The notes below the pieces were generated by a model that was not told where the DNA came from, made no database searches, and worked only from the letters and a program-made list of their open reading frames with translations. 64,000 bases of DNA from Laetmonice hystrix. Taxonomy: Eukaryota. A program made the translations under genes and the position numbers. Positions 8,901 to 61,608 of this stretch are shown piece after piece. The stretch covers positions 7,380,001 through 7,444,000 of the forward strand of contig OZ249436.1 of NCBI GenBank assembly GCA_965235115.1. Reading direction: 5' to 3'. The first letter of the stretch is position 1, and every line of letters begins with the position of its first letter.

Positions 8901-11900
8901 AAGTCTCAGGTAACTCTATGAAGGGATGGAGCAACATACAGAAGGAAACCAGGCCCTATCTTTTTATAATAATTCTTGCATACATGATTATATACAGACA
9001 CGTGGATTTGCTTTCCCATATGGCCGCTAAAAACCATGTTTACCATTATGTCTCATTTATATTGGATAAAAAATGGCCGTGGTCTTACATCATTTACACA
9101 CAATAAAAGGGAAACATGCCGTTCTGGCGTTCGTGGATACCAGCCGACAGCGCAGTGTGAAAACCGTGTGTTGTAAACAAAGTCGCGATGGGTGTTGGTC
9201 GCCAAGTATAGTTCTCCGCCGAGGAAATGAGTCCGCATCCTAACTTTTAACCCTGTACAGCCCACGATTTTTTGTCAGTCTTTCTGTAATAAACTGGCCC
9301 AGTATGTAGTGTATGTTATGCTTATTCTTCGTGCTGTGAATAACCATAGTGCAAGGCTTCCGCTTTTGACGTCCCAAACGATAACCCTGCTAACGGAAAT
9401 GACCCATCAGGAGGGTAGGCCTGTCAAAATGTCAGACATTGTTGCTCTTTACTTTCCGTGGTCTAGGGTCAGCTCTGTTAATAACAAACCTATGTATATA
9501 ATAATGGTCAACCTCACCTATACGACCAACAGTCCAGTTTGTATTCGAGCCAGTTTACTGCAGTTTTAGTACGGACCTTAAAGCCAGCTAATACCGCTGC
9601 TGTTCGACCTCCCTGCCAACCACATAAATCCGGCAGACATGGCCTGGGCACCGACATCCTGAAATATCGCTTCCACTGGGAGCACTGCCCTGACTTACGC
9701 TGCCCACGGCATTTTTCTGCCAAATCTTGTTAAGAATATGATGAACGAGCACTTCATCAGTAACAGTCGAAGACGGTCGTAAAATGTTAATTTATTGATG
9801 TTGTGTTTCTTAACGGGGGCATATTTCCTAAAGGTCATTCAATGGTTTATCTGTACCTTGTCCTGTTCGTAAACAAATCAAATAACTTTCTATTAGCATG
9901 GGGACAACAACGCTTGGATCTTTCTGAGTAGGACTGACGGTCCCCCGAAGCCCCCCACCTTACAAAACAGAGGTATAGGTCCTGGATGACCTTGATCGCT
10001 CACCTTGAAGGATGTAAGTGTGACGACCTTGAGCTGTGTTGTAGTGTGATCAAGGCAGTCACTGTGGGAAATATTCAACTAATCACTAACTTATACTCAG
10101 GTTTATTGGTGTCAAACGAAGCCAACAACATAAACCGTCCGTGTATGACAATCCGACAGGTTGCTTGCACAGCGAGTTTGTCAGATTCATGGATTGTGCC
10201 AATTGCAGAGTATTGGTTGGAAGATGGGCGGTGGAGAAAGGGTCGACTTAATAAACCGTAACAGACCACACTTTTTGAACTACACAGGAGAGGTAGATTG
10301 ATTGCAGTTCACTATGTGTTATAACGTCTGCAGCCAAGTCCTGCTATCGCAGGCTAAAGGCAAGGCTCTGCTGGAAGCAATGTTATATTCCACCGCTCTC
10401 TCAGGGCAGGTAAATCTCAAGTCAAACACGCTGGTTGTCCACCACTGAATTACCTGGCTGTACAAAGAAACCATTTGACCACTGTAAATCTTGGCCGGGC
10501 CTGGTGGAGAAAGCACGCTAAGGGCGTGCTGTCAACAGTTCCCAGGCCAGTAGCCCTACCTGGCCACTTCCTAACCAGGCCCACATGGAGACTGTGAGCC
10601 TTCGGTGGCTGTTTGATCAAAGAGTTTCGCTGACCTCACTAAAGGGCTCGCAAGGAGTACCTGCCATGAAGTGCTCCCTGAGGACCTGGCCCTATCGGGC
10701 TCCCAGGCCGGTAAGTCACTGATGAGGTTTGGGGAAACATTAGCCTCATCACATCTCTGGTTATCACCTGGTCTGCCATCCCAACATACTATTCACACAT
10801 CAATCTGCCTTACCTTTTACTTGCCTCAGTAGCTCATGGTCTTCACCTACCACCAAACCACTCCGCCTACCACCAAACCAAAGAGACCATAAACAAGCCA
10901 GGAGAAGACATCCAGCCAGCCAGCCGACCGGCCCTTCTCTCCCTCTGTGCCTAATTCGCTCTCTGGTGTAAACAGTTTTGATTTATCAAACCTCTGGAGG
11001 AGTTAGGTGGTGAACATGGTGCTCAGTCTAGACCCTGTACCATCAGTCTGAGCTGGTCGAGTCGGTGCTAAACATGAAGAAGCCATACAGTAATCATCCT
11101 GATATATGCATCAGTCACTGTGCAGCTACAAAGGGCCGCTAATATATTTTTCTATCACAGACACATTATATGCAATGTGCAAAAGGCATTGGCTCTAAAA
11201 CAATGTCTGAAGCTTGAGTTATTTACGGGGAAAAAACTTGAATCGACCATGTATATAAGCATACAGAAGCTGGTATGCCTCAAAAACCTGACCTTTAGGC
11301 CGATATGTAAAATGCTGCAGAAGCATTTTCTCACTCATATTACGGTGTTTTCTCTGAGACGGACAGCGTCCGGCCTGTCCCTGTAAACAGCTGCCCATCC
11401 CGGCGGTTACCCTTGATAACACCAAGGACAAGATAGCAGCCGGCTCTGACCTGGCGTCACTGATCCCGACCCCGGGTGGGGCCGCTGGCACAAGACCACA
11501 ACCATTGGTGACCTTCTCCTGCTTACATATATTGGATATGCCATCATCTCATGTAAGCTACATACCAGTTTCTCCCTCAAACGACGCTCACACAGCTAAC
11601 TCTGCAAGGCCATTACTGTCTACATCACACCAACACATGAAGTTCGTACTTTGTGTAACTGGCGGTCGACAACTGCCGCCCAAATACAGACCGAAATATT
11701 CCATGTGAACATTCTTACCACTCGGCATGGATTAACAGCACATGTACCTCCTTAGAAGGGGAAAAAACAAAGACCATGCAACAAATTATGCTTTCCAGAT
11801 TTCCCCTTTGATTGGATGGCATCCGCAATGTTATGCAATAACGGACAATTACCTCGCTAATATTCTTTATAATAAATCATATTCTCCACAGAACGGTTCG

Positions 11901-14435
11901 AATTAAGTGGCCTTCCTGAAACACGCAGCTATTACCAACTAGAGAAAAATACACCTTCCCAATATACGTGTTCTTGTTGGATCACAATGAGTTTCACATG
12001 GCTCTAGGTGCTGCCTCATCCCCTGTTGGAATGTAGGGAACTCTCGTGTCCCCTAATCACAGAACTTTCACCATCAAGAGGTCAAACAGTCTGTCAAGGT
12101 CATGGATTAATCTCCTGGTCCCTTTCAAACTACTGGCCACCTGTGTCAACGAGAGGACCGCATGACTATACTGAGTCGTCCATGTACATCATCAGCCGTG
12201 ATCCATACCAGGGCTGGCACATACACGTCTACACCAGGCGGTCTATACCAGGGAGTCTATACCTGCCCGTCCTCCCACTGCTTTACGACCATCAATCCTC
12301 AGTACTTGTTGACATATTCGATCTATTTCCATATCAACCAGCACCTCGTATTGACAGGTGTTTTTATAATGGGAACAAAAAATGGGTAGGCCCAGCAAGG
12401 CAGGCGTCATTGCCATTACAACATCCATTATCCAGGGAATGGATTCCTCGAATCTTGCACATTATAAGAGGAAGACGCCGACTTTCTTATTAGCGGGACT
12501 CTCTATCGGACCAGCACAGGACATGTTTCGCTAACAAGAGAATTCACCGTCTACCAATATTCGTTATATCAGGGCAGGAATGTCGATGTGAAAACCACTT
12601 GCTGCTTTGCACCCACATTACCTGGAGTTAAGGGTGTATAACCCAGAAAACCACCCACACATAAAGCCATGGCCACATTCTTCTCAGGTTGTTGACCTAC
12701 AGCTACACCAGACGTAAGAGTTGGACCTCCGAATGTTTCCCAATGACAAGTCAAGGTTACTCTATTGTCAACGACCTGAGTGGCCGCCAAACCATCCATC
12801 CCAACACGTCCTGGCTCCTCTCCAAATCTCTGCACACTTTTCCTACGTTCTTTACCTCAGAGTGGTCAGAGAACAAAAATATCTTAACTTTAGAATCCCC
12901 ATAAAGTACTGAATCAACATAAAGGACGAGGTATTGTTTCTGGGTTCGTGTTGACGCTATAAACACGGCTAAACTGGTGCCACTCAATCCTACCTGTTCA
13001 TGCAACCAATGAACTGTGACTGTAGAAACCCATGAGGAACGTGTTTTAATTGGAAGGAATGTTTGAGACTGCCACTAGTCTGGGGTCCCATGTGATACAA
13101 TCGGATGTCTGACGGGGCACGCCCATCCTGAACCGCTACACTGATACGACTGGCGCTGGTCGGTGGAGTAGGGCAAGAGGAGAAGGGTTGTATATTTTTG
13201 TTAGACCAATAAAAACACGACCACTTCAACAGTCTCATATAAACTGTACATAGACTACATAACAAACAAACAAGCTGCTTGTCACTAAGTTAGCTCAGGT
13301 GAATTCTTCGCTGATTACAGCTCATCAATTCAATTATCTGTCGGACTTTTTTTGGTTAAGCTACCCTATTAGTGAAAGCTTTGCCAGATTTAAAAAAAAA
13401 CTGTGAATGATGCTGGGGTATGGATTGACTGAGGAGTCCCTACAGCCAAGAGTACATCTGTAATCCTCTTGCCGCTTCATATTCCCCACTGACGAGCACA
13501 TGGAGCAGAAAGGACACGGGCACTGAATGTCCACATCATCAGTTATTATAGCCAGATAGCTCTACACATATATCAAACGATGAAATATGTAAGCTCTGTT
13601 TTGGTCGTGCAAGCTACTCTCCCCCGGAACTACTGAGCCCTATGCCACTCGATCTGATAAAAGACAGAAACTAGCACCCGTCGCAAACCTGATCGGAACA
13701 GCGATTTTCACTCTATCCATACTCCACAGTCAGGTTAGGTCACCCATGCATTAGAGGTCATCCAACCCGTCCTAATGGCCCAGATGACCTTTCCTGGCAT
13801 TCGTCTTGTGGCCCCAACCAACTGACCCCAACGGTAGACTAGGTCACTACTGTGGAGCCTTGCCTCCATTAGCAGGAGGGGACTAAAACATTGATATTAT
13901 AACTACCACACGCGCTCCAGGTTTGTCTGCTCACCACTATCTACCGGCCGGAGCTGGGGTGGAGCCGGGGTGGGGCCGGGGGCGGGGTGATGGGCTGACC
14001 GCCTGGCCTGTGTCCAGGAATGGATACCAGCGGTAGTGGCCCCGGACAGGTAGAGACAGGAAACACGGGTCAGCTGGTGGTCAGTCCCAGGCGCTCTCCT
14101 CCATCCTCGACCCTCTGTGTTTGCTAGCCTTGCCAGAGTTGTCAAATCATGAACGTCTGGAAACCTCTCCTTGACTGACATGAACAGTTCTACACACAGA
14201 GAATACATCAGACCTTGGTGATAGTTTCATTATGGTAGAAGGCTCTTCTAATCTATCACTCTATTCAAACATTATCAGAGAATGTTCACGGATTTCTTGT
14301 ACATCACTGTTCACTAATCATTAGAGGGTAGCTAGCCAGCTTGTCTTCAGTCAGCAGCAGGATTCGGTATTTACAGACTGAATTTTATAGTCACATTTAT
14401 ATTGTTTTGTATTTTTTTTAAATGAATCATCAAAG

Positions 14436-14696
14436 CAGGCGCGTGTCCAGAGGGGGGGTCCGGACCCCCCCCCCTGCTCCCACAGAGCATAGATTTTTTC
14501 TAGGAATTCCGGCCGTTTTGAACCCGTTCAGCGATTTTTTCTAAGCATTTCCGCCGTTTTGAACCTGTTGATCGATGAATCTACAAAATATAATTCCCTA
14601 AAATGGCCCCTAAATGGCGGGAATCGCGTTTCAGAGCTTCTAATTTAAAAAAAAAATCTGAGACCCCCCCTGCTGAAAATCCTGGACACGCGCCTG
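14436..14696. mobile_element. MITE (non-autonomous DNA transposon), CAGG termini, 5-bp TSD
   Basis: Perfect 15-bp TIR CAGGCGCGTGTCCAG / CTGGACACGCGCCTG, flanked by direct repeat CAAAG (14431-14435 and 14697-14701). Confidence 0.92.
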
Positions 14697-17578
14697 CAAA
14701 GGTGGTAAAGTTCTGATCTATACCTCCTCACAAACCGATTACAATGTGGGTTCAACTGCACAGAATGTATGGATCATATTATGGCCTAACGTTCATCACC
14801 GTTAGTGCAAAATCCCTACCATTATAATGATAAAGGTTCTAAATGCTCTTACAGACAAAGCACAGTAGAAAAACGCCATTCGAACCTGACTTGTACTCGC
14901 CCTCCTGACAAAGCGCTAATGGGTAGGTCCATTACTTCTTCAAGGCTACCAACGCTGCCATACAACAGCGATATATTGGTATTTGATACACATAGATACT
15001 CGCAAGCTCTCTTCACCCAATCTCCTGTGCAGATTTATTGCACACAACAAAGTAACAGAAATTGACGCTGTAAATTATACAGCCAATGGCAAATTGGTTG
15101 ATTCTCATGAGTGTTTTATTTAAAGGAAGAGATATACAAAATGGATACGAGCTATACCAAATGTAAGGATAGCACACTGCATACATCACAGAATCGGACT
15201 TTTTTTTCACACCGTATACCGTCATCATTGAATTGCCCCTAACCTATAGAATTCAGGTTTGGGTTGGCAATCAGAGACAGAATCCAACAAACTTGGGGCA
15301 TTGCAATAAAAACGTGCCTTGGCTGGCCTCAACTGGCCTGGTTCTATGTTTTCACCTGTCTAATATATCTGGGTCCTCGAGTTTTTATGAGGACCTTGTA
15401 GACAAGCTGCACTATTCTGGAAACATTTTCTCTGTACAGGTTGAAACTGGAGAATGTTGACATACGCAGGTGTTATTTGTTGGAGGCCATAACCCTCACA
15501 ATACTAGGGGTGTCGTAGTAATGACGAAATGACATGTCTATCACATGGGTCAAGACAAAGTTCAGTCTACCTGCGCCCTGGGACGTAATTTCAGAATGCA
15601 ATACGACTTTTATCCATTCCTTGTAAAAAGTTCAGGAGGTTGCTCATTGGAGCTCACCATCTCTGGAATGTATGTCGGTAGTTTGAGGCGGGGGGGGGGG
15701 GTGTAAAACAGGCTATAATAGAGGGCGGCACAACCCCGCCTTACACTTGCTTCTCCAGCATGCTCATAGAGCCAACAACTTGTAAACTTTTCTGGCTGGC
15801 TGGCTTGTCAGGGGAAACCACTTTCCAGCACACTTGTGTTATCTCTGGCCACATGTTGCCGTGGCTACAGGTGCAAGGTCAAGGCTGCTAGGCACACTCG
15901 GGATTTCTCGGGCTGTCAGTTAGTCTGCACGTCTCTTGCTCTTTAAAGATGTCGCTCAGGAAACCCATGAATGGCTTTTCCTAATCGTCCCGTTGGCAGC
16001 TATACAAGTACTCTTTCTCCTGTTATAGTACACTCTATAGTCTCACAAAGTTCATTCAAAAAGTTGTGCATTATCTCCCCCCCTTCCCAAGTATAAAGTG
16101 ATTTCTACCTTCCCAAGGCGTCCATTCATCCATCCGATTCTCAAGTACCACCTCAATCACACCACCTCAATCACACCTATGTAAAGTACCGCCTCATTTA
16201 CAGCTATCCTCTTTGGTTGAGAGAGATCACAGGACAGATATCACTGAAGGCGTGTCAACATACTGCCGCTACTCTCAAGATATATTATCTTCTTGAAGAC
16301 CACCCACTGAAACATATACCATCTTACGTCTGATGCCGTGCAATGTTGCCTCTGAATGCTGGAGAAAATATGGCCTTGTTTTCAACACCGAAAAAGGCTA
16401 ACTCTTACCTCCAGCTTTAGGCCTCATTCCATTTAGGTTTCAAAAACTATGAGGCAAGAAATACGTCTCCTTTAAAAAACAGATAAAAAGGAAAGGCTCT
16501 TCCAAAAGAAGTGTGGACAAAATGAGGTTTAGTAAACAGATTTCCCGGACCTTTCTTTTATTTTTTTCCACCTAATTCCTGGGAGGATTTCTCCTCTATC
16601 ATCAATTACCCACTGCTATCTCCACTAGTAAGTTTTTGCTCCTACTTGTTGACAGGTGCTTGTGATGTGACACCTGACCGGTTTACCTGGAGTCAGGGGG
16701 GTAGGGGATGGGAAGACAAGTTACCAGGGAGATGACCCTCACCCCGGGAGAGGTCCCTAGGATGTCAGACGGAAACCATATGGTGATCTCCTGTCATCAG
16801 AATGTCGGCGTTCTTCTCAAACATCTCGAGCGTTCCTATCCCCCATCAAACGTCCTTACAAAGGGGAATCTCACTCTCATTAGTCACCTCCGGCGTGTAG
16901 CACACAGACAACAACCCAGACAGACCACTGACTCACGACGACACAGAACTTTCTACATTAAGCAGATTCCAACTGATGCTGCTTCAGCTATTTTCTTTAC
17001 ATCAAATTATTTGTACACCCTGATATAAAACATATGTCACCGGGTTTCCTGCTCTCATGTGCAGATCCCAGCTGAGTTCAATGTACGAATACGAAAGAAC
17101 TGGCAGGGTGATTTGACACCCTGCATGCCCACTTGCCAGTCAGGGGGAGGTATCTCACAAACCCCCCTGCTTTAAATTAAGCAGAGGCTAAGACTTGAAT
17201 AAAATTTTATATTTGTACTAAGAGAATTCGAGGATACAATATTAACCTGTAGATGGTACAAAAGGATTGTCTTTACGGAAAACCTACTAGAATAAACCGT
17301 ATCTTTCATGACCTGTTTTCATCGACGCCCGCAGATTGCTCTGGTCCTAATAGTTCAAAGGATCATGATGATCATAATAAGATACGGCTTAAATAATCCT
17401 TTAAAAATTTCTCATGCTTTTCTTTTACAATGAAATAAATACACATGCTTTAAGTTCTTGAATAATGGAGTTTTCAAGAGAACTATGTGGCGTGATCGGA
17501 ATTCCTCTCAGATGTATGGATAGGGTGGTCTGATAGAGAAAGAAATGAGCAGACAGTTGTTTTTATGGTTGAACTTAC

Positions 17579-18362
17579 CAGGTGGCGAGACTGCTAACGT
17601 CTGTGGGGGGTTTGGTGGGACATTCTGCACCGTAGCGCAGGCCATCTTGCTGCGCTTCCATAATACTGAGCTGAGGCGTGCCCGGATGAGCCGACTGGAC
17701 TGGACCACAGATACACCGACCCCATTGCTACCTGACGTCACCGGGCTACTACTGCTGCCAGTCCCGGCACTGGCTACCACTGTCGTGTTGGTCGGAGTCT
17801 GTGTGGTGGTGACAGTACCAGTGGTACAGGTGACAGTTCCACTGCTGGTCGGGGTAGTCGGGGCGGTATTTAACACACTAGTGGAGACTTTCGGAGTTGT
17901 TCCAGCCTGAGAAGCGGGTTTGGGCTTTAAGTTCGAGTTGCTGGCAGTGGTCGAGGTGGAGGTGGGGGGAAGGGCCGAAGGTCTTGCTACTCCGTTCCTG
18001 GAGGCAGGCGACACTGACGACTTGGACGCCGCCGAGGACCTGGAGGAACCCTGGCTTAGCTTTGCCTTCTTGCTCTCTGAGCCTCCTCCGGTCCCGCCAC
18101 CACCTCCGCCACCGCCACCTCCCGACCCGGCCTTGGGGGCCGGCCGGGGCCCATCCACCCGAGCACGCTTCTTGGCTACCTTGGTGCCGGTATTCGCAAT
18201 CTTGTTCTTGACTTTGCTGCCAGTAAATCCAGTGGTACGAGGATTGTCACAAGCAAGCGTGGTGGTACTAGTGGAGGGAATGGTGGTGCCGTTTGTGGGC
18301 AACACACCCAGTGTGAGCACGGAGCTGTGCTGATCCTGCAGGCCCTTGGTGACAGCATGGAG
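17579..18362 (-). CDS. Coding-like part of a large first exon: S/T/G-rich disordered segment with NLS-like motifs, then MACATVQNVPPNPPQTLAVSPP; gene unidentified
   Basis: 261 stop-free codons (ORF track 17508..18320) with low-complexity S/T/G composition, a poly-Gly tract and basic motifs KKRARV and KKAKL. The first in-frame ATG is at 17645 in strong context (aagATGG). A consensus donor CCTG|GTAAGT at 17578 (phase 1) coincides with a drop in GC content. Confidence 0.7.
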
Positions 18363-18780
18363 TCATGGCCGGGGCACACTCCCATTCGATATACTACTCG
18401 ACGCTGAGCTCGCCATCAGTCTGTCACTCTCTCCAAGACACAGGTGACAGACAGAAGGTCCCAGGGCCCGGAGTACTTTACCAACACCCTTCACACATCG
18501 GACCACGCCAAGTCCAGCCTGGTCAGCTCGGCCTGTCAACTGAAGCTGTGTCCGTGCTCGCCAAACGTACTTTCCGTCTCCTCCTCCCGGGGCAAGGGTC
18601 GAGGGCAGGCAGGCTTGGGCCGGAGGGCCGTCGACCCAGTCAGAGAGTGGCCGAGGGGACGCTTGTAGTAGTAATAGTAGTAGTAGTAGAAGACTGGCGT
18701 TGTGGGGGCAAGCTACTTGATTTCTGGCTTGCTCACCTACTCCTCATGTAGATGACTATACTGCCAGTACAGTACACTAA
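18363..18780 (-). promoter_or_regulatory. Candidate 5' leader with multiple upstream AUGs/uORFs and a (CTA)n tract
   Basis: ATGs at 18747 (MRSR*), 18498 (MCEGCW*), 18416 (MASSASSSISNGSVPRP*), 18385 (69 aa) and 18366 (32 aa), plus one just downstream at 18358. Inr-like TTAGT at 18780-18776. Confidence 0.5.
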
Positions 18781-19480
18781 GGTAGCCGTGGCAGCGGAGG
18801 CAAGCTTCCCCCATCAGCTGTTGTGTCAGCTGGTCTACAGCACCTCCAGCGTATATCTACAGGGTAATGCCTCTCTCTCCTCTCTGGCCCTCACTCTCCC
18901 TGGCCCGCCTACTGCTCCTCCAACACACGCCACTGGCCGCGCCCACTTCTAGGGGTGGCAGCCTCTGTCCTAGAACTTCTAGGAACTCACTCACTTTTCG
19001 TTGCTTCAGCCGCTGAGGCCAGCTCAACCCTTCAGCAACTTTAAGTCACCCTTTCTGTCACCGTTATAACGGCTGTCATCTCCTCTCTGGCTGTTTACGG
19101 GTGGCTTTCTAGGGATGTACTTAGAATGAGAGATTTTCGTCTTAAAGCTATTGAAGAGATTCGTACAAATGAGGTCATGTGCGTGCGGCGGGGGCTGGTG
19201 TTGACAAGTAGTCATGACTTTCTGGTCAGCAGAGGGTCTGACCCTGAGACGGGAATCACTGACTGTGGAAGTTTCATGACATCATTTCTTGACCTGACCA
19301 GTGGTAGGGATGTAACGATATCTTTACATCATTCACTGCCGTAAATTATCACATTGCGGGTGAACGACCGTGGGGCTACTGCCAACACCCCTCTGTCTAG
19401 CGGGTGTTTTGGCCTCTCCCTTCTGCCCTGTCCACACCAGGAGGGCACCGGGCAGTGGGGGCGGGGCGGGGCACGTGGTC
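18780..19480 (-). promoter_or_regulatory. Candidate promoter region of the minus-strand gene
   Basis: GC boxes (GGGGCGGGGCGGGG 19458-19471) adjacent to CACGTG (19472-19477), paired CAGCTG E-boxes near 18815-18832, and a GA-rich tract. Quasi-palindrome TCCTAGAACTTCTAGGA (18968-18984). Inr-like TCAGT (19262-19258) and TTAGT (18780-18776). Confidence 0.45.
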
Positions 19481-20391
19481 TTCATTAATCACAAACAAAA
19501 ACATAACATCACAAACTAAACCAAGTTACACCAGCTCTGATACCTGGCGACAAACAACTTTATAAAGATACCTTACAACTCAAGGGAAACTACAGATCAA
19601 CTACAGATAACGTCTCGATCCCACGTATACTTATTCTGCCGGGCCGGTCATGTCAGGGCACCCGTGGTTTTACACCCCACGGGTCCGGCTCGCCCCCCTC
19701 CCCACACAAACAGGCAGGGTTACGTGCCCTGGAAGTGGTGACCCCCCCCCCCCTGATGGACCTCCTAATTGGTCTCACAGCATGGCGCCACTCATTATGG
19801 CGACTTCGTTCCCCTTATAAACAAAGGCCACATCTTATCATGCAGATACCTTAATACACAAGGTAAACATAAACCTTAACAAGAAAGGGAAAAATATATT
19901 TAATGCCAATATAACTGAGACAATTATAGCAGGGAAGAGTTAATATAAAATGTAGAGATACTATCCACGGAATACGGCTAGCCTGGATCCAATTAGTTCA
20001 GTTTGTGAAAACAGGGTCTCGTGACCAGACTCTGAACAGGCAAAGTTAAGACTTTTAAAAAAGATTTAGATTTAAAAGAGAAAAAAAAGTTAGGATTGAC
20101 GGGGACCACGCCTTCCAGGGTTTGGACCGAACCGTACGATGTATTTAAGGTGAAACAAATCTCAAGCACATAAAAACAATACTGTTGCTATGGCTTTCTC
20201 CCTCAGCCCCTGGCCTGATCGCGACTGTATGTGATATCATGTCATAATACCGGGAGTACAGCTGCACTAGCTCCATGCAAACAGCTGGCTGATCAGCTGG
20301 GCATGCCAACAGTTTCCTTTTTTCTGTGGCAGTTTTTGGCTGTAAATGTCTGGTTCATCATAGAACACTTCTGAAGATCCTTCACCGCCTT

Positions 20392-20457
20392 CCCTCTGGA
20401 ACAGACCCTAGACCCTCTGGAACAGACCCTAGACCCTCTGAAACAGACCCTAGACCC
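20392..20457. repeat. 21-bp tandem repeat, 3 copies
   Basis: CCCTCTG(G/A)AACAGACCCTAGA x3. Confidence 0.95.
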
Positions 20458-23400
20458 AAGGATCTCTGAGTCAGTCCTATAAGGCCAAGCTTTCCTGTTC
20501 TCTCAAATCTCTGGGTTGAAAGACCCATGATCTACTCAATCCCCCTAGTGGACATTAATGGAACTGCTAGATTGAAGCGCCAACTGCTGAACGTGTACTT
20601 CCAGCGGTAAATGGCTGCAAGCCAAACATGGCTACACTTAGACTGCCACCTGGAGGAAAAGTTAGGACTGTTCCAGGCGTTCAGGATTCTAATCTGGTCG
20701 TTTCGTTGTGAAGGGAAACGGCTATTTATGTATTCATCCTCTCCCGGGGATACTTCAGTTTGATATTACTGGCCACACTTGTACTTGACTCTTGGCAAGA
20801 ATAACTACGCAGGGGTGAGAAACTTATGATGCTTGGCATCTTTCCATTGTGATATACATTCTGCCGGAGCCCTAAGACTGCACTGATCGAGAGAAAGCAT
20901 ATCCACAGAGAGCCTCCGCTTTAATCATACTTGCCTTACAGTGCGACTCGAACCCTCCGCCCGTTGACAATCTACCCCCACCCCTCCCTACCCATGCACA
21001 CTTGTGGCGGTACAGGCAGGAGACACCCAGCTGTTCTGTGGCACGTGCCACGTCAGTACCCGGCACGAGCGCGGTCCCATTGGTCTACACAGTCGTCTGC
21101 TGATCTGCCATTGGCCAGCGTTGTTACCAAGGATGTGAATGGAGCGAGCCATCGCTGTGCCAACGACCCAATCAACTGAAGGAGATTCTAAAAGGTTCTT
21201 GGACCGCCTCCATACATTGCTCCATCCTCGAACCTTCTTGAACTTTCTAGATTAATGAAGGATCAGGTCCCACGCACAGAACGACGTTCTTTCTATCACA
21301 ACCTGCAACAATCACATACAAAGGTGAAAGTGCGTTCTCGCTCCCTTGTACTTGATACTTGAGCAGTGCATTTTGTTTTATTTGGATAACTACCTCCTGT
21401 GGGGTTCGCCCTCCTCACTCCTTGTCCATTTGATACTACCATGTACTAACGCGTACACTCTCTTATAAATGTAAAATCTGTCCTCAAGATAAACAGAGGT
21501 CCAGAGTGAGTGTTTACTCAGCACCATACATTTTCAGTAGACTTTTCAGTAGTCCTATGGTTGTGTTCAATCTATATCTTGCCACGGGAACAGGATTTAG
21601 CGTTATACAAAATACCTCCTGCCCTAACTGTTATACACACCAGGCTGGGATAAATGGCTGACAACCCACCATTTGGCCCAGGTAACACATCATTTGATTT
21701 CAGCGAGCATGAGTAAAATACTGTTACCCATGAAACAGCCATAAATTATATCATTATATTATACGCTGGACTTGATAAAGTTAATGTTATAAAAGTTAAA
21801 CTGATGAAACTACCAAGCAAGTAAGCAACACGTGTGGACACGCCGAGCAAATAACGACACGAATGCGTTTCACAACCATCGTTATCATGTCGTGCGTTAA
21901 AATCCCCATTAAATACATTTGCGTTAACGATACGACAAACTAACGACAGGTTAATGCAGAAACTAGTTCCAGAGAACAAGAAAATGTAAAATGAAATTTC
22001 ACCCAGCTGAATCCTCTGACCCAAACTCTACTTGAACTTATAGGATCCTTTTGTAGACACAACCTTTCTGTTAGATTTTGATATCTTAACAACCACTTAT
22101 CCCGGTGTAAACTATTATGTAAATATATATGTACATGCGTGCCAACATGCACGAGTACAGTGGTCACGGTGGGCACCACGTTAGTTGAAACAAGAAACGC
22201 GAAACTGTTATTATAGTGGTGTATGGTAAACAGCCCTGACTGGAAATGGCTCAATCTTTTTGAGCCATTCCCATTTCAAAAGCAGCCAGATGACCGTTAT
22301 AGGAGCCATCCTTAGAGCGGGCCAATGAAGACCGAATTACGTTGTTAAAACGAAACAGCCGCGTACTGAGTACCAGAAACCTCCCAGCCTTCGATCAAAC
22401 CGCACACACCATACTCCCTTATTACCGTTTTCCACCACACAGCAGCAGGCAGCAGCAGGCAGCAGCAGCAACAGTTGACAGCTAATTCTTCAGCCCATAT
22501 GCTGTCAACAACTCAGTAAATTTCCTGGTCGTTTCAGGTTTTGAGTTTGACAGGTGCTGTCAGCCTATGCCTCATTTTATGTTTATACAACAATATTTTT
22601 AACAACAAAACAGTGAGGATCCAAAAAACAAACAAAAAATATCCATGCTGCAAAGTATTTGACCTAATAACAAGATGACACCTGTGGGAGGTTTCTACTT
22701 TGGCTCAGGTATTTTTCTCCAAGGGATACCCAATCTCTAGGCTCCTCACTCGTTGAAACCTCAGTTACCAATCTCAGGACAGGTAAGGTGGCTTTAGTAC
22801 GAGTCAAACTGCTCTTATCTAAACAACCTTACTAACTAGACAGTCACTAAAGTTAGTTTTTGATTAAGGAAGACATAAATTCCAAATCTGCAAGGGGACA
22901 GGTCGAGAAGGGTCGTTAGTAAACCGAGTAAAATACACCTGGACTTATAATGCTCTATCGATTAAAACACAAACAAAAAACAACGTTACAACAATAAACT
23001 GATAAATATAGACCAAGAACAAACGGAAAGTAGAAAGGAGAAGTTTATACGAGTAACGGTGAGGGACGGTAAACATGAGCCAACACCCATGACAAGAGAC
23101 CATCAGAGGATGGAGCCTGTGCTCCGCTGGCCGACAGTGCTGACACCTGGACAAGAGTCTGGGAACTGCTGTCAGCACTCAGTTGCTCACATCTCTCTCT
23201 GATTGCTACCACACAGACCCGGCGTACCCTCAACCTTCCCCCTCACCCTGCCCTCTCCCACCTACCAAACTCCCTTCACCTTCCAAAGGGGACCTTCTTC
23301 TACAATGAGACCACCAAAAAGATATCGTTCAGGCTCAATATTTGGTTCAGGATGATAACGAAAAACACAAACAAATCTTGACAGCGCAGGTTCGACTCAG

Positions 23401-25384
23401 TGGATGTTCTACCAAAACATGTTCTAACTAAAATCCTCTAACTATATGTGAATGTACTCCTAAATATGGCAAGTGGAATATGGCTGCATTTAAGACTTTC
23501 TCGTAAAAATTGTTACTCTGTGATCCGACTTGAAGCCAGCGTTCGACCCAAAAATTGAGTCAATCGCCACTTTTCATCTATCAGCCAAAATAAGGAGTTG
23601 GCTTTTACGTGCTTTTCAGATAAGTTCGAACACGTCAAACCTCATCAGGAAACTAAAAACCAACCCAAACCGTCACTGAAGTACAGAGAGATTTATAACG
23701 GCAGGTCAAAATCTGAACAATAAAACGGACCGCCTTACTTGTCTGCAGGTGTAACTTGACAGCTCACTCGTTTCGGAATACCATCTGCAAAAGACAAAAG
23801 TACGGGATTATTATTACACCATTCTGGAGTATCGTCTTTCTAATGAAAATGATCACGCTAGAATAAGCAATCATAAATATATCTCTTTTGTTCTGAAATA
23901 TGGCTGGCTGGAACAGCCAATAAAATTCATCGGGCAATGAACCGATGAATTTCATTGGAAAATAATAAATACTGTAATTAAAGAAAATGTAAAATTCAAT
24001 GAAAAAAATACCACCGATTGTGAAGGTTTCAAAATGTTAATTAGTATTTTCCTATTACATAAGTTATAAACTCACACACACCATGATAGTATACATTAAC
24101 AGACAAACACAAATAGGACGATGTCTGCCAATAACTTTCTCAACAGTCTTCCCGTTAGGGAAACCCTATGCCAGCCCTTTCCGACGTGTATCAGTCGTTT
24201 GGTAGAGATTGGAAATCGGTTTCCTGATCCCTCACTGTCAGACTTCCTTCACCCCACGTCTCCACCATCACATGCTCGGCAAACATATCAAACGACAGTC
24301 CAAATCTTTTTGTATATGAGGTGACCTTCACAGAAACTCTATCTATGACAGATTTATCGATATGAAAAAAAGTCTTGACTGTCAGGAATGTGACAAGATT
24401 GATTAAGCTAGATGTACCAAGCTATTTCTTCTACACGTGGCCAGACTTCAGAGCCCTGCTACGGAGAAAAGGCCGACCAATGGGTCACATCCAGTCAATC
24501 ACAATAACGCCCACGCCATTACTCAAAACACTCGATACCTTTTTCTGTATCACCCAAGTAGCAATTTTCATGACAGACTGATGAGAAAATTATCAATCTT
24601 ATTTTCTCTCTTTTACTACGTTAAATTAAATGCCGCTCTTGACTACACACTAAAGACTTTCCCCCTGAGAGCTGACTGGGAGTACGACGAAGGTTCTGTG
24701 TGGTAAATTCATAGCCATCAGGAGAAGAACCCCGAGGGGTTTGACTTGTATGACACGGCCCTGGCTATCGTTGGAATGTTCTACATATAACGGTCACAAA
24801 TCGACCTTTGATTTACTCTGTGCCACACTTCCTGTCCGTTTGATGACGCCCAACTCTACATCTCAAGGTCAAGAGGTCATGGCACTCCCTGGAGTGAGAC
24901 AGTCATGACCAGTGCTGTCACTTTCAGATAGGGAGCACTACTAATAATACTGTACCTGGTGTTATGAACCTTTTCCATTAGAAGCAATTCCATGGTAATT
25001 CCATCCATACTTGTAGGAAGACGGGGATAACGAATGAAAATGTTATGGGTGACACAAACACTTTAACTCAGTAATCATCCAGAAATTCGCGATAAGGTTG
25101 GGGAGATACACTCAGAAAATCTGTACAATGTCATGTTTATCGGTATGGATATTGTACATGAAGGGTTCCAAATACGTAGAAGGCCTGGAGAAAGAGAGCA
25201 AGCAATTAAATGTTGCTTCCAGAAAATGTAGGTCCTTTCCATTTTACCTTATTCCCAAAATCTACTTAGAAACATGCCTACATTCAAATGAACTGAAGAA
25301 AGCCTAGCAAAAACAAAAACCAGTAAAAAAGAAAACGTAGATGAGTAAAGGATTGACGTTTATCACGGTGACGTGTCATTAAGT

Positions 25385-25471
25385 GTTTACATTTCTCAAA
25401 TCGTTATATTGTAGATCTCAATGTGTAAGTTTACATTTCTCAAATCGTCCTATTGTAGATCTCGATGTGTA
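25385..25471. repeat. 44-bp direct duplication
   Basis: GTTTACATTTCTCAAATCGT..TATTGTAGATCTC.ATGTGTA at 25385 and 25429. Confidence 0.9.
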
Positions 25472-28431
25472 GATTTGTTTTCAGATAGGGAGAACCTGGC
25501 TCCACGTGGAACTTATCCCAAATTTAGATGTTAACGTGAACAAACTCAGACTAAAGGTCCACTAGAAATATAAGGGGTTTGACATCTTTATGAGAATTGA
25601 GACTGTATTCCTATCGTCAGTCATAGTGCGAGCAACTGGTAGAACAGATACGGCATGGCAACACGACGGAAAACATATCCCAACAAATTCGACAAAGTTA
25701 AAATCGCCTCAAATACGGCCGCCAAACTTCGGGATGGTGATTACAGATTCTTATGCAGTTTTATGCTGGGGGCTTGACCCCCTTATCACGTACAGAAGAT
25801 TTTGATGCCCTCGGAAGAGATATAAAATGTGAATTACACCGATTCACCCTACTTACGTCAGGCTAAATGACATAAAGCACGGCTGCAAAAATGTGGATAC
25901 CATCTAAGAATACTTACTCCTGTAAAAATACTATAAATACGGGTCGATTTGTACAAACTCTATCACAAGATTATGTCATTATCATTCTAAGTAAACTGTT
26001 AATCCCAATTTGTACAGCGAACTAACAGGGAAAGCCAGAGCGCAACGTAGCTTTCTTTCCAGCCAAGTATGAGTTCATGTACATGAAAACAATGGGATAT
26101 CGTCTAATGTAATCGACAAATGTCTCTTCTAGATTCCTCATTTTGTGTCTTCATAACAACTAGTTAAGCCAAACGGATTTTGTTTTGCATGACAACGTGA
26201 GTGCTTGGGGAACCTGTGATCCTGATGAGAGGACTCGGTGTCTCCACGCTCAGCAGAGACACGGGGGTTGGGGTGGGTGTTTGGTGGGGTAGTACTCGCT
26301 GCCAGTCTGTCTGCTGTATACTTCACATATCCCACCTGCAGTGGGTACAGTCCACTACATTACAGCGATAACGTCTGCAGACAGACTTCCATGTCTGCCG
26401 CCACCGATTTATACATACCAATAAATCCCGTTAATAATCAGGATCATTTAGAGTGGATATTGCATGTTGGGGAGAGGGGCGACTGCACCCCATTTTCAAA
26501 TTGCATTGTACTTTTAAAGTGTTAAAACAATTCTTTATGACTAGTTTAGCCTACCAACTGAAATGCAAGAAGTACCTATACCTTGTGTGATGTAACAACC
26601 AAACCATTCGCATCACTGAACACAGCTACGAATTGTGAATGGATCAACCTGCCTGCTCCAAGGATTTCCCAAAGGCAGCAATGGGGCGAGTCAATGGGAC
26701 CAGGCCTACTGACTGAACTGGGTACGACCTGGACACAAGGATCAGGTAATCGTTCTCGGCTGTGCTTAGTGGTGCGTGAACAGAACTGATTGACCGTTAC
26801 ATCACACAATGCCCGCATGCAATTGTGTAGCAAAACTGGTCAAAATACTTATCATCCCCAAGTATATTGTTTGGGTTGGGTTGTATTGTTTGCTGGACAT
26901 ACTGTAGGGCATGGAGCACAGGAGCATAACCGACGAATGTTATATCTGCATTAGCACACTGTAGGAACTAAAGGTTATATTAGGCCATCATCAAATTGAC
27001 ATTTTGAAAGCAGATGTAGACACTGGAACGTATTAAGGCACTTGTGTGGGCATGTGTGGGACTCCAACAGACATCTTTACTTGTACTCGCTAATCAAAAC
27101 TGCTACATTGAATTCAGGATTCCATTTACGAAATTACAGTTGTTTGACATGTTTGTCTAAATTACTGTGTACGGATCCACTGAAGTAAAGTGAAACTACG
27201 GTATTATTCTGAGTTACATCCAGTACCCTGGTTTCCCAGGGCAAACAACGACTTTTTTACATTTCTGTATTTCACTACCTAATTCTTGCACCAAAGTTTT
27301 ATGCCTAAATCTACGATACCACCAGATGTCGGAGAGGGAGCCAGTAGGCATCTTATTTTCGTGAACGGGAGTCAAGGCAACAGCCGAGACCCATTACGAT
27401 GGCGTCAGGGACAAACAGGGAAGGTAGGAGCGTGGAGAAATTTTTACATGAAAAATGAGCACACGTGATTCCGTGAGTTTTTTCAATGGAGACCAGTTTT
27501 TGTCTTGATATCCTTCCATTTACGTGGCGTATGTGGGTGTAGTTTTTTTTTTTTTTTTTTTGGGGGGGGGGGGTCAATTAGTTTTTATTACAGATAGACA
27601 TATCAATTTGGGAATTCAATTGGTCTGCGTATGACCGCTGCACCCCATAAGGGGACCTTCCATTGCGAACCTTTGTGCATATAACTTATATAACTTATGA
27701 CTTGACTTAATATAAATTTAAGTAAAGTCATAAGTATTATTCATTGATGATTGGGTCTCGGCGTACATGGTTTTAACAAGTTGGTATTAGTTGCAGAAGC
27801 AGGACGTAACGATGCGAGAGTAGCAGAATTGTTTTGTGCAACCACTGCTAACTTTGATCGCAATCCTGAGTTGCGATAGCAGGGTGCGATGGTTTCAAGT
27901 GTGTGAAGGCTCAGGGCTGTTGACACCCTACCACTGGTTACCCTGTCTCACATGTTGCTTTCCCGAGAAACCGATGCCGATGTGGCAATGTGTGTATCTT
28001 GCAGACTGATATGGAAGGTGAATGTTGTTTTCTGACCAGCAGAGGAGGCCATTTTTCCATGGGTTGAGAGAGATAGAGAGAAAGCACCACGCCTTGCTGG
28101 AGCACCATGTGACACGGCTACAGGCACAAGGAGGACACAAACATGTCTCCCCATATTGACTGAACCTCCCCCTGTGCAGCCTAGATAACACTGGTTACTT
28201 CCTCACCCATCCCTTTGAAAAAAGCGTTGTTATCTTCGGTTAGAGTGTAAAGGAAAGTCTTACATTCCAGCGGCGTGTCCCAGAGGGGCTCTGAGAATAG
28301 TTAGTCAATGCCCAGCATGCATGCACACTGACCAATCCATCACTGTTGGCAACCTGTTCACCACAAACGACCCCTGCATTCTCACCTCAACAGCCACGGT
28401 TGCTATGGAGACAGTGTGGCGTGATTCTTGC

Positions 28432-28535
28432 AAGAGAAAGAGATAGAAGAGAAGAGAACAGACGAGAAGAGAAGAGAGATAGAGGATGATGAAGATAGAG
28501 AAGTGAAAGAGAAGGAAAAACAGAAAAAAGGAGAA
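28432..28535. repeat. GA-rich low-complexity purine tract
   Basis: About 100 nt of nearly all A/G. It explains the F/L/S-rich spurious minus-strand ORFs. Confidence 0.85.
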
Positions 28536-29407
28536 CATGAGGTAATGCTGGGTAAACTGAATCTTGGGCATCCAGGGTCCCCATAGTCGTGGGAGGTTCG
28601 TCCCGTTGTCAAGTCCCATTTTGCCCTTTTCCTACCGTCTTTCCCAGTTTGGGACGTAACAGTCGCGGCGCTATGTAAAAGCAAGCCCCCTGTGGACGAG
28701 GAAAAGTGTTGACTATTATTTCTGTTGTCTAAGACAAGCAGGGGGTGGGAGTGGTAGGGGGTAATGACTGCTATCCACCTCGGCAGGGTACGGGACCCTG
28801 CAGGGCCTGGGACGTGATAGCGACGGCAGGGGGCGCGCCGGGCAGCGCCTCATCCTCAACACCTGCACCACGAGACCACTTGCCCTCTTTCTATCATTTA
28901 TATGCCTCCTCTTCCAACAAATACTTCTTTCCAGATGTCTTGAAGACATACCAGATAGGTCCCCGTAAAAAAAAATCCCTGCCTAGCTGGCTGTCGGTAC
29001 AGGTTGCTTTGTTCATCTCTCCATCTGGCCGGGATGTGGGTGGCAATACAGCGTTCACGGCTTCTTTCGCTGGACCGCCTCGACGGGATCGCCCCCTGGC
29101 GGAGGAGGTCTGTTATTATTGATGTGACTTATCTTTATTGTGTGTGACAAGCCGACGCCACGGAGCTGGTCGTAACCAGGGCAACATCCCACACAGTATC
29201 TCGACTGACGAAGGCTGCCGGGTTCTCTAATCCTTGCACCTCATATATTTCACATGCATATCATCTAATTGACAGACGAAATACTTGAGGAGCATTGCGC
29301 TTCGCTATCACCAACACTGCTCATACAATTCAAGTGGTTTAAAAGGGAAACTGAGTTTACCAAGCATCTTTATCTGCATTATTCAAAGAAGTATTTCATT
29401 GCATCTT

Positions 29408-29874
29408 AAAATGTATCAGTGTGACTCTAACATCAGGCCCTTAGAACAAAAAATGTATCAGTGTGACTCTAACATCAGGCCCTTAGAACAAAAAATGTAT
29501 CAGTGTGACTCTAACATCAGACCCTTAGAACAAAAAATGTATCAGTGTGACTCTAACATCAGACCCTTAGAACAAAAAATGTATCAGTGTGACTCTAACA
29601 TCAGGCCCTTAGAACAAAAAATGTATCAGTGTGACTCTAACATCAGACCCTTAGAACAAAAAATGTATCAGTGTGACTCTAACATCAGACCCTTAGAACA
29701 AGAAATGTATCAGTGTGACTCTAACATCAGACCCTTAGAACAAAAAATGTATCAGTGTGACTCTGACATCAGGCCCTTAGAACAAAAAATGTATCAGTGT
29801 GACTCTAACATCAGGACCTTAGAACAAAAAATGTATCAGTGTGACTCTAACATCAGGCCCTCAGAACAAAAAAT
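29408..29874. repeat. 42-bp minisatellite, 11 copies
   Basis: ATGTATCAGTGTGACTCTAACATCAG(G/A)CCCTTAGAACAAAAA from 29411 to 29831 in steps of 42. Units are near-identical with no spacers. Confidence 0.98.
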
Positions 29875-34810: not shown

Positions 34811-35020
34811 TGTACGATGATCTGGTGCGAGTACGATGATCTGGTGCGCGTACGATGATCTGGTGCGCGTACGATGATCTGGTGCGGGTACCATGATCTG
34901 GTGCGGGTACGATGATCTGGTGCGCGTACGATGATCTGGTGCGGGTACCATGATCTGGTGCGGGTACCATGATCTGGTGCGGGTACCATGATCTGGTGCG
35001 GGTACCATGATCTGGTACGA
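34811..35020. repeat. 19-bp minisatellite, about 11 copies
   Basis: nGTAC(G/C)ATGATCTGGTGCG repeated with period 19. Confidence 0.97.
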
Positions 35021-61433: not shown

Positions 61434-61608
61434 TAAATAAGGCTGGTACAGTAAAATGAAGGTAAATATGGCTGGTACAGTAAAATGAAGGTAAATATGG
61501 CTGGTACAGTAAAATGAAGGTAAATATGGCTGGTACAGTAAAATGAAGGTAAATATGGCTGGTACAGTAAAATGAAGGTAAATATGGCTGGTACAGTAAA
61601 ATGAAGGT
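61434..61608. repeat. 29-bp minisatellite, about 6 copies
   Basis: GGCTGGTACAGTAAAATGAAGGTAAATAT repeated from 61441 with period 29. Confidence 0.97.

What the first reader, a model, noticed from the sequence alone, without database searches (positions are those of the whole stretch)
17579..18743. A 1.16-kb single reading frame broken only by one UGA-C, with ~240 Met-free codons before the first in-frame AUG: candidate readthrough or non-AUG N-terminal extension
Seen: on the minus strand the frame is open for 126 codons (18743-18366) and contains ATG 18416 (MASSASSSISNGSVPRP). It hits TGA-CTC (18365-18363), then stays open for 261 codons to a strong donor. That stretch has no Met until aagATGG at 17645, yet looks like real disordered protein: S/T/G-rich, poly-Gly, two NLS-like basic motifs, and a compositionally distinct motif SRLIRARLSSVLWKRSK just before the Met. 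In-frame near-cognate starts are present (acaCTGG in good context just after GTG 18320). Known: UGA followed by C is the leakiest stop context, and CUG-initiated extensions add NLSs in FGF2 and BAG1. Inference: the long form could be made by readthrough from ATG 18416, by CUG/GUG initiation, or by reinitiation, giving a nuclear-targeted long isoform plus a short MACAT isoform. I saw no convincing stimulatory hairpin after the UGA.
Basis: partly seen in the sequence, partly recalled or inferred. Interest (0 to 1): 0.75.

Follow-up and report, generated by a model that had tools for sequence, protein, structure and literature searches.

The report
Stop-interrupted N-terminal extension of MRTF
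In a marine-worm-like animal, the first coding exon of the actin-controlled transcription cofactor MRTF carries about 250 extra protein-like codons in front of its usual start, broken by one stop codon near their beginning, so a longer nuclear form may be made by leaky decoding, or the stop may simply be a recent mutation.

Summary
The exon is the first coding exon of the single MRTF gene of a lophotrochozoan, probably an annelid. ATG 17645 (MACATVQN) matches the annotated start of mollusc MRTFs and splices in frame to the RPEL and SAP exons. The 239 Met-free codons above it carry a strong coding signature (0 of 5000 shuffles; second of 1528 windows in 264 kb). The lack of Met is not unusual (P 0.19), and the frame above ATG 18416 is not coding-like. 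A DNA contig confirms the TGA. No good acceptor lies near it, and a probably-RNA run covers sequence on both sides. So a 257-codon basic, disordered extension begins at or shortly after AUG 18416 and is interrupted at codon 18 by UGA-CUC. No CUAG motif, hairpin or SECIS was found, and no orthologue of the extension. Mammalian MRTF-A also has a non-AUG start, at another position. The scan noted a similar layout in fungal cpcA, not in MRTF.

The parts
18363..18416 (-). AUG 18416 plus 16 sense codons (MASSASSSISNGSVPRP) and UGA: an in-frame uORF, or the interrupted N-terminus of the long isoform
   Evidence: Context C-3, G+4. The 16 codons after ATG score as coding at P 0.036 under a codon model trained on other MRTF exons. 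11 of 12 codon-model settings put the coding change point at 18410-18419.
18360..18365 (-). The single in-frame stop, TGA, followed by CTC (UGA-CUCC, not UGA-CUAG)
   Evidence: Present in DNA contig X1 record 4. No significant 3' structure, z between -1.08 and +0.95 in 5 of 5 folds.
17646..18362 (-). 239 Met-free, coding-like codons: S/T/G/A/P/V-rich, basic (28 K+R, 4 D+E), predicted disordered
   Evidence: Periodicity and shuffle tests; charge; single-sequence AlphaFold mean pLDDT 41.5 for the 261-residue frame; parts 17781-17950 and 18022-18171 covered by contigs of run X4.
18309..18311 (-). Best in-frame near-cognate start, ACA-CUG-G; would give a 222-codon extension (others: CUG 18341, GUG 18320 and 18305, UUG 18302)
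   Evidence: 6 of 8 positional-base settings put the change point at 18296-18302.
18156..18173 (-). NLS-like basic motif KKRARV
   Evidence: The NLS label is by recalled consensus, not tested.
18093..18122 (-). Ten-glycine run written with all four Gly codons
   Evidence: Third-position mixing is expected of a translated run rather than a plain microsatellite (inference).
18057..18071 (-). Second NLS-like motif KKAKL
   Evidence: Label recalled, not tested.
17646..17696 (-). Motif SRLIRARLSSVLWKRSK, weakly like the MRTF spacer before RPEL3 (LKRARLxDxLxxRL)
   Evidence: 44 of 2000 shuffles reach the score with a 16-column profile, 316 of 2000 with a 22-column one. Score 5.2 against 27-47 for true spacers; the comparison was chosen after seeing the motif.
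17659..17725 (-). Two out-of-frame AUGs in strong context (17725: G-3, G+4; 17661: A-3, G+4) whose ORFs overlap the MAC AUG
17579..17645 (-). Conserved MRTF start exon part MACATVQNVPPNPPQTLAVSPP, phase-1 donor; joins in frame to the exon at G000:C1:7360612, outside the window
   Evidence: 15 of the stored homologues start M[AT]C..QN. Exon 2 found by tblastn at E 1e-17 to 1e-20. A seven-exon model is open for 1006 codons with GT-AG joints.
18417..18743 (-). Upstream part of the open frame: non-coding leader, transcribed at least from 18659
   Evidence: Not periodic; -0.48 to -0.51 bit per codon; 6-nt deletion at 18548 and 8-nt insertion at 18626/7 in other contigs; X4 contig over 18486-18659, no X4 depth in the bins 18689-21356.

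Best explanation
Shown: this is a first (or 5'-proximal) coding exon of the animal's MRTF gene; ATG 17645 is the start annotated in molluscs, and the 717 nt above it bear a protein-coding signature in the same frame. Inferred: ribosomes scan past one weak 6-codon uORF, start at AUG 18416, and mostly stop 17 codons later at UGA-C. A few per cent insert an amino acid and go on through 239 more codons into the normal MRTF. The product is a low-abundance MRTF with a 257-residue disordered, basic N-terminal arm whose NLS-like motifs lie outside the actin-masked RPEL region. The leaky stop would act as a dose limiter on a form that may enter the nucleus without an actin signal. The MAC start is probably little used on this long mRNA because two strong out-of-frame AUGs overlap it; shorter MRTF comes from other first exons.
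For: Coding signature of the leader: 0 of 5000 shuffles; second of 1528 non-repeat 717-nt windows, the first being an MRTF exon; unchanged without the Gly run (chi2 70.2). The signal starts within 2 codons of AUG 18416 in 11 of 12 codon-model settings, and no more than 0.01 of the posterior lies above 18446 in 20 of 20 settings. The 16 codons before and 17 after the TGA score alike (P 0.036 and 0.045). AUG 18416 has only one short AUG uORF above it within the covered leader, whereas CUG 18311 has five AUGs. UGA-C is the leakiest context, 3-4% basal in one mammalian study (PMC4615788, passages); only 18% of leader codons begin with C and 3.8% with CT. The exon looks constrained: X1 shows no difference over 17367-19211, and the indels of X1 and X3 all fall above 18416. 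The word share of X2 favours no further SNP by about 3 to 1.
Against: The context is CUCC, not the CUAG of the four efficient mammalian cases (PMC4132726, passages), and there is no 3' hairpin. Abundant readthrough was not found outside Pancrustacea, and recent nonsense substitutions are the named confounder (PMC5100048, passages). Positional-base models put the change point at or below the TGA in 7 of 8 settings. No orthologue of the extension was found, so conservation of the stop is untested. 139 of 179 variant rows were not shown, and the word share of X3 slightly favours one extra SNP somewhere in the 1165 nt, so a heterozygous stop is not excluded. The per-segment P values near the AUG are weak and rest on 16-17 codons.
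Confidence: 0.32

Rival explanations
1. Near-cognate start. The extension begins at CUG 18311 (or CUG 18341, GUG 18305, UUG 18302), by leaky scanning or by reinitiation after the 17-codon uORF, which would carry ribosomes past the out-of-frame AUGs 18385, 18366 and 18358. The UGA is then just the in-frame stop that bounds the extension.
For: ACA-CUG-G is an optimal context. 6 of 8 positional-base settings start the signal at 18296-18302. Human and rodent MRTF-A start at GUG or CUG upstream of an AUG (PMC8079280, PMC3821035, passages). Known extensions reach 235-300 codons, are usually bounded by an upstream in-frame stop and often contain out-of-frame AUGs; ORFs under about 35 codons allow rescanning (PMC3105428, passages).
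Against: Five AUGs lie above CUG 18311, three of them opening ORFs of 32-69 codons across it. The in-frame AUG with coding-like codons must then be chance or a relic. No hairpin below the CUG (z -0.67). The vertebrate non-AUG start is at a different place: it adds RPEL1, whereas here RPEL1 lies at residue 105 of the MAC form.
Confidence: 0.28
2. Recent nonsense mutation. The exon encodes an ordinary AUG-initiated long MRTF isoform from 18416, and the assembled haplotype or species carries a young stop at codon 18 (for example from a CpG-containing Arg codon). The loss is tolerated because other first exons supply MRTF with all three RPELs.
For: It predicts exactly a coding signal from AUG 18416 across one stop. 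Such substitutions are the standard false positive for readthrough. An alternative upstream exon at 23784-23739 is present in run X4 at higher contig depth, and an in-frame Met (MEEQ, residue 58) matches annotated shorter isoforms. There is no specialised readthrough signal.
Against: X1 has the TGA and X2 probably has it (about 3 to 1). If both haplotypes carry it while differing by indels 130-260 nt upstream, a dead exon should have gathered differences, and X1 shows none in 17367-19211. UGA-CU would be a chance context (about 4% of leader codons begin CT). CGA is rare in this gene (1 of 1185 exon codons, 0 of 239 leader codons).
Confidence: 0.24
3. Ordinary splicing. An unseen intron removes the TGA (for example from a donor near 18481 to the AG before 18267, which would put AUG 18498 in frame), or an upstream AUG exon joins an acceptor below the stop.
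For: X4 contigs leave 18172-18485, which holds the TGA, unbridged, so the stop is not shown to be in spliced RNA. Phase-compatible AG sites exist at 18267, 17997 and 17699.
Against: The AG sites at 18335 and 18267 have 3 T in -20..-3, against 5-11 at eight inferred acceptors. No donor between 18569 and the TGA scored above 2.5 bits on a recalled consensus, although one true donor scored only 1.6. The coding signal runs through 18416-18268. An X4 contig covers 18486-18659, above the candidate acceptors.
Confidence: 0.1
4. Non-coding 5' leader whose open frame and triplet pattern come from GC-rich, repeat-like sequence; MRTF starts at 17645 or lower.
For: All 15 stored homologues with this exon start at M[AT]C and none shows an extension. 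No Pfam match and no credible Atlas or HMMER relative.
Against: One phase holds over 717 nt, with no TRF-masked base and chi2 equal to true exons. Synonymous mixing in the Gly and Thr runs. Stop-free at P 0.0004.
Confidence: 0.06

Closest known systems
Mammalian MRTF-A (MKL1/MAL) non-AUG long isoform (human GTG start; mouse and rat leucine/CTG start)
   Same: Same gene family; a longer isoform from a non-standard start upstream of an in-frame AUG (PMC8079280 passages and section 4; PMC3821035 passages).
   Different: There the extension supplies RPEL1. Here all three RPELs lie below the conserved Met, the extension is 222-257 low-complexity codons with NLS-like motifs, and an in-frame AUG plus UGA sits at its head. 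No sequence homology between the two extensions was tested.
Long non-AUG N-terminal extensions of Ivanov et al. 2011 (R3HCC1, EIF4G2-type layout)
   Same: Met-free coding stretch bounded by an upstream in-frame stop, with out-of-frame AUGs shielding the first in-frame AUG; lengths up to 235-300 codons (PMC3105428, passages).
   Different: Those were defined by cross-species conservation, which I could not obtain. Here several AUGs lie above the candidate CUG.
UGA-C / UGA-CUAG stop-codon readthrough (AQP4, MAPK10, OPRK1, OPRL1; insect readthrough genes)
   Same: UGA followed by C, with a coding signature on both sides.
   Different: Context CUCC, no hairpin. The stop is at codon 18, so readthrough would gate the whole protein rather than add a C-terminal tail. 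The animal lies outside Pancrustacea (PMC4132726, PMC4615788, PMC5100048, passages).
Mollusc MRTF M[AT]C(L/V)(V/I)QN first coding exon
   Same: Same start motif and same following exon (WSPLY..LD...YC..CRME...MDKNKE); alternative first exons and ME-start isoforms exist there too.
   Different: No annotated mollusc protein among those retrieved extends above this Met; their upstream DNA could not be fetched.

Membership tests
MRTF/myocardin family (host gene) | Three N-terminal RPEL motifs | tested here: met
   PF02755 hits at G000:C1:7343638 and 7343129 over the cut-off, and at 7353079 under it (RRxxxEL type, as RPEL1 in MRTF-A).
MRTF/myocardin family (host gene) | Basic region, Q-rich stretch and SAP domain | tested here: met
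   SAP at E 3.8e-11. 263 hits among 8000 scored candidates; the named ones among the 120 listed are mostly MRTF/MKL.
MRTF/myocardin family (host gene) | The finding's exon joins the RPEL exons in frame | tested here: met
   Genomic seven-exon model, GT-AG, 0 stops in 1006 codons. The first joint is inferred from homology, not seen in RNA.
MRTF/myocardin family (host gene) | Leucine zipper and C-terminal activation domain | not tested
   Not examined.
Programmed stop-codon readthrough | UGA followed by C | tested here: met
   TGA-CTC.
Programmed stop-codon readthrough | Extended CUAG motif or 3' stimulatory structure | tested here: not met
   CUCC; folds z +0.69 and -0.80 for 100 and 150 nt after the stop.
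Programmed stop-codon readthrough | Coding signature on both sides of the stop | tested here: inconclusive
   Strong below; above, it depends on the model.
Programmed stop-codon readthrough | Stop conserved across species | tested here: inconclusive
   No orthologous DNA found.
Programmed stop-codon readthrough | Footprints or peptides across the stop | not testable with these tools
   Only contigs available.
Non-AUG N-terminal extension | In-frame near-cognate codon in good context, no in-frame AUG, bounding upstream stop | tested here: met
   CUG 18311 with A-3 and G+4; stop at 18365.
Non-AUG N-terminal extension | Coding signal begins at the near-cognate codon | tested here: inconclusive
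   6 of 8 positional settings near it; 11 of 12 codon settings at the AUG instead.
Non-AUG N-terminal extension | Conservation of codon and extension, or initiation footprints | not testable with these tools
   No orthologous leader retrieved.
Selenoprotein (UGA = Sec) | SECIS element in the 3' UTR | tested here: not met
   No SECIS family at E <= 1 in 24 kb covering the exon and about 12 kb below the MRTF stop. Divergent SECIS elements could be missed.

The most novel reading that the evidence does not exclude
A leaky UGA at codon 18 works as a translational gate: readthrough of an in-frame uORF stop yields a full-length MRTF with a 257-residue NLS-bearing arm that escapes G-actin retention. 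This would give an invertebrate a myocardin-like, constitutively nuclear SRF cofactor from its single MRTF gene, at a dose set by termination efficiency.
Probability: 0.25. Interest if true: 0.82.

Novelty: new variant of a known kind. Interest (0 to 1): 0.52.

Why it matters
MRTF activity is normally set by G-actin masking its own nuclear import signals. An extra N-terminal arm with exposed NLS-like motifs could bypass that control. If the arm is made by readthrough, it is a cellular case of a stop at the very start of an ORF gating a whole isoform, in a lineage where readthrough is thought rare. If made from CUG, non-standard starts in MRTF have arisen at least twice. If the stop is a young nonsense allele, the finding reduces to an unannotated long first exon and is ordinary. 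One alignment with a few related genomes would decide. My searches found no paper on an invertebrate MRTF extension or on MRTF readthrough; the library lacks most subscription papers.

Tried and rejected
Orthologues of the extension. phmmer over 1.84 billion representatives with the last 59 residues gave 1 hit, a repetitive unnamed protein judged chance. A peptide-pattern scan of metagenome contigs matched 595 stretches, 0 confirmed. Exact look-up of 8 window ORFs found 0 of 8. The Atlas gave two hits below 0.8, leads only. BLASTP of the leader against three long mollusc MRTFs gave nothing credible (best E 0.035). The Lymnaea partial protein P0110 runs on above an LSCLTQAN stretch resembling the MAC motif, but it is a partial prediction and I give it no weight. 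No paralogue of the motif in the own genome.

RNA. No RNA holder was listed as such. Run X4 has kind '?'; I infer RNA from its size (58 Mb) and from a contig holding an AG/GT-bounded 46-nt piece with unlike flanks. X4 has no contig over the TGA or ATG 17645, which proves nothing.

Selenocysteine: no SECIS. An altered genetic code was not pursued, because the MRTF ORF itself appears to end in TGA. The single-sequence fold was uninformative.

One acceptor coordinate (7349509/10) was wrong, giving a false stop in the model; it was corrected to 7349502, and that row is not counted. The odds given to the mechanisms are my estimates from soft priors, not computed results.

Full report
Observation. 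The frame is as described: 18743-17579 on the minus strand has one stop, TGA 18365-18363, then CTC; ATG 18416 lies 17 codons above it, and the next in-frame ATG is 17645. The window is G000:C1:7380001-7444000 of a 627-Mb, 35-contig genome, and the stretch is single-copy.

The gene. A scan of 200 kb below the window found an 800-codon minus-strand frame with a basic region, a Q-rich stretch and a SAP domain, whose relatives are MRTFs. Three RPEL exons lie at C1:7353079, 7343638 and 7343129. Mollusc MRTFs begin MACLVQN, MACVIQN or MTCLVQN (15 of the stored homologues), matching MACATVQN at 17645. Their next segment matches an exon at C1:7360612, 37 kb below the donor at 17579 and in the right phase. 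A seven-exon model from 17645 is open for 1006 codons with GT-AG joints.

Is the leader coding? For 18362-17646, 5000 dinucleotide shuffles give P 0.0004 for no stop, and none reaches the observed codon-position asymmetry (chi2 70.5; true exon 35.3; 50 intron windows at most 21.9). Among 1528 non-repeat 717-nt windows in 264 kb it ranks second, after the large MRTF exon. The value survives removal of the Gly run, and one phase holds throughout. The Gly and Thr runs mix synonymous codons. The lack of Met is unremarkable (P 0.19). The 81 codons 18659-18417 score like background, and contig X3 carries an 8-nt insertion there.

Where does the signal start? Change-point analysis over 18659-18201 with 20 model pairs put at most 0.01 of the posterior above 18446. 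Eleven of 12 codon-model settings peaked at 18410-18419, on the AUG. Six of 8 positional-base settings peaked at 18296-18302, near CUG 18311, and two at 18365-18374. The data do not choose between these.

Reads. Four runs of one sample were laid on 9351-29350. X1's contig matches the window across 17367-19211, so the TGA is real. X3's 14 gap letters and X1's single gap all lie above 18416. 139 of 179 variant rows were not shown. Word shares, modelled, favour no extra SNP in X2 by about 3 to 1, and one extra SNP somewhere in X3 by about 2 to 1, so homozygosity of the stop is only weakly supported. X4, which I infer to be RNA, has contigs at 18486-18659, 18022-18171 and 17781-17950, none bridging the stop, and no depth in the bins 18689-21356. 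It also holds the 46-nt exon 23784-23739 inside a longer contig.

Splicing. Eight inferred acceptors of this gene have 5-11 T in -20..-3; the AG sites at 18335 and 18267 have 3. No clear donor lies just above the stop (recalled consensus). An intron that removes the TGA is unlikely but not excluded.

AUG layout. From 18659 down, eight AUGs precede 17645. Only a 6-codon weak uORF precedes 18416, five AUGs precede CUG 18311, and two strong out-of-frame AUGs overlap the MAC start. This fits 18416 as the intended start and makes MAC initiation on this long mRNA inefficient (inference from scanning rules; PMC3105428 passages).

Mechanisms. Readthrough: UGA-C is the leakiest context (PMC4615788 passages), but CUAG (PMC4132726 passages) and a hairpin are absent, no SECIS was found, and readthrough is not abundant outside Pancrustacea (PMC5100048 passages). 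Near-cognate start: good context, and a family precedent in mammalian MRTF-A (PMC8079280 passages and section 4; PMC3821035 passages), though at a different position. Recent nonsense allele: the standard confounder, tolerable because other isoforms keep all RPELs, but at odds with the low variation in the exon if the stop is on both haplotypes. I estimate 0.32, 0.28 and 0.24, with 0.10 for splicing and 0.06 for non-coding. The first two can coexist. That the stretch is or recently was protein-coding I put above 0.9; that it is still translated, about 0.65.

Function. The arm is basic (28 K+R, 4 D+E), has two NLS-like motifs (label recalled), and ends in a motif weakly like the spacer before RPEL3 (44 of 2000 shuffles, chosen after inspection). 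In MRTF-A, G-actin binding to the RPELs controls localisation, and deleting them makes the protein nuclear and constitutively active. Extra exposed NLSs could therefore give a less actin-dependent form; this is inference only.

Limits. No orthologous leader was found, so the decisive test is open. Other papers seen as passages only and not relied on: PMC9287330, PMC9841425, PMC10259493 (it notes the lowest NMD for yeast uORFs ending in UGAC) and PMC11550727. No supplements were read; those of the non-AUG and readthrough surveys could list MRTF cases that I did not see. Searches were seen as listings; none showed a report of this feature.

Verdict. A real, coding-like, unannotated N-terminal extension of an invertebrate MRTF, interrupted by one UGA-C at codon 18; mechanism undecided; a new variant of a known kind; interest 0.52.

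Noticed in passing
window 23784-23739 (minus): Single-copy 46-nt exon with a T-rich acceptor and AA|GTAAGG donor, present inside a 281-nt X4 contig. It begins ATG, and if joined as inferred it gives a second in-frame AUG...UGA (6 codons, UGA-G) ahead of the MRTF frame; probably a 5' UTR exon of an isoform starting at MEEQ.
   Followed up: partly
L002:2434-2490 (G000:C1:7372434-7372490, minus): 57-nt phase-1 symmetrical exon with strong splice sites, starting GTAA as the X4 contig does after the 46-nt exon; open in the MRTF frame. The joint is inferred, not seen.
   Followed up: partly
L139:1492-2622 and L140: Two apparently intronless actin genes in this genome.
   Followed up: no
G000:C2:26107580-26154849: A second RPEL gene with four motif hits, probably Phactr (name recalled).
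   Followed up: no
window 29408-29874, 34812-35016, 44183-45588, 61434-61608: Tandem arrays (periods 42, 19, 464 and 29) that create spurious long ORFs.
   Followed up: no
window about 14450-14700 and 21860-21910: Very high-copy interspersed repeats (summed contig depth in the thousands to tens of thousands).
   Followed up: no
G000:C1:7232973-7260510 (L013-L016): Five near-identical copies of one 135-codon frame within 28 kb, probably a repeated element.
   Followed up: no
P0110 residues 1-20: A partial Lymnaea MRTF prediction has LSCLTQAN where others have MACLVQN, and runs on upstream without Met; may be an artefact or a sign of an upstream start in gastropods.
   Followed up: no
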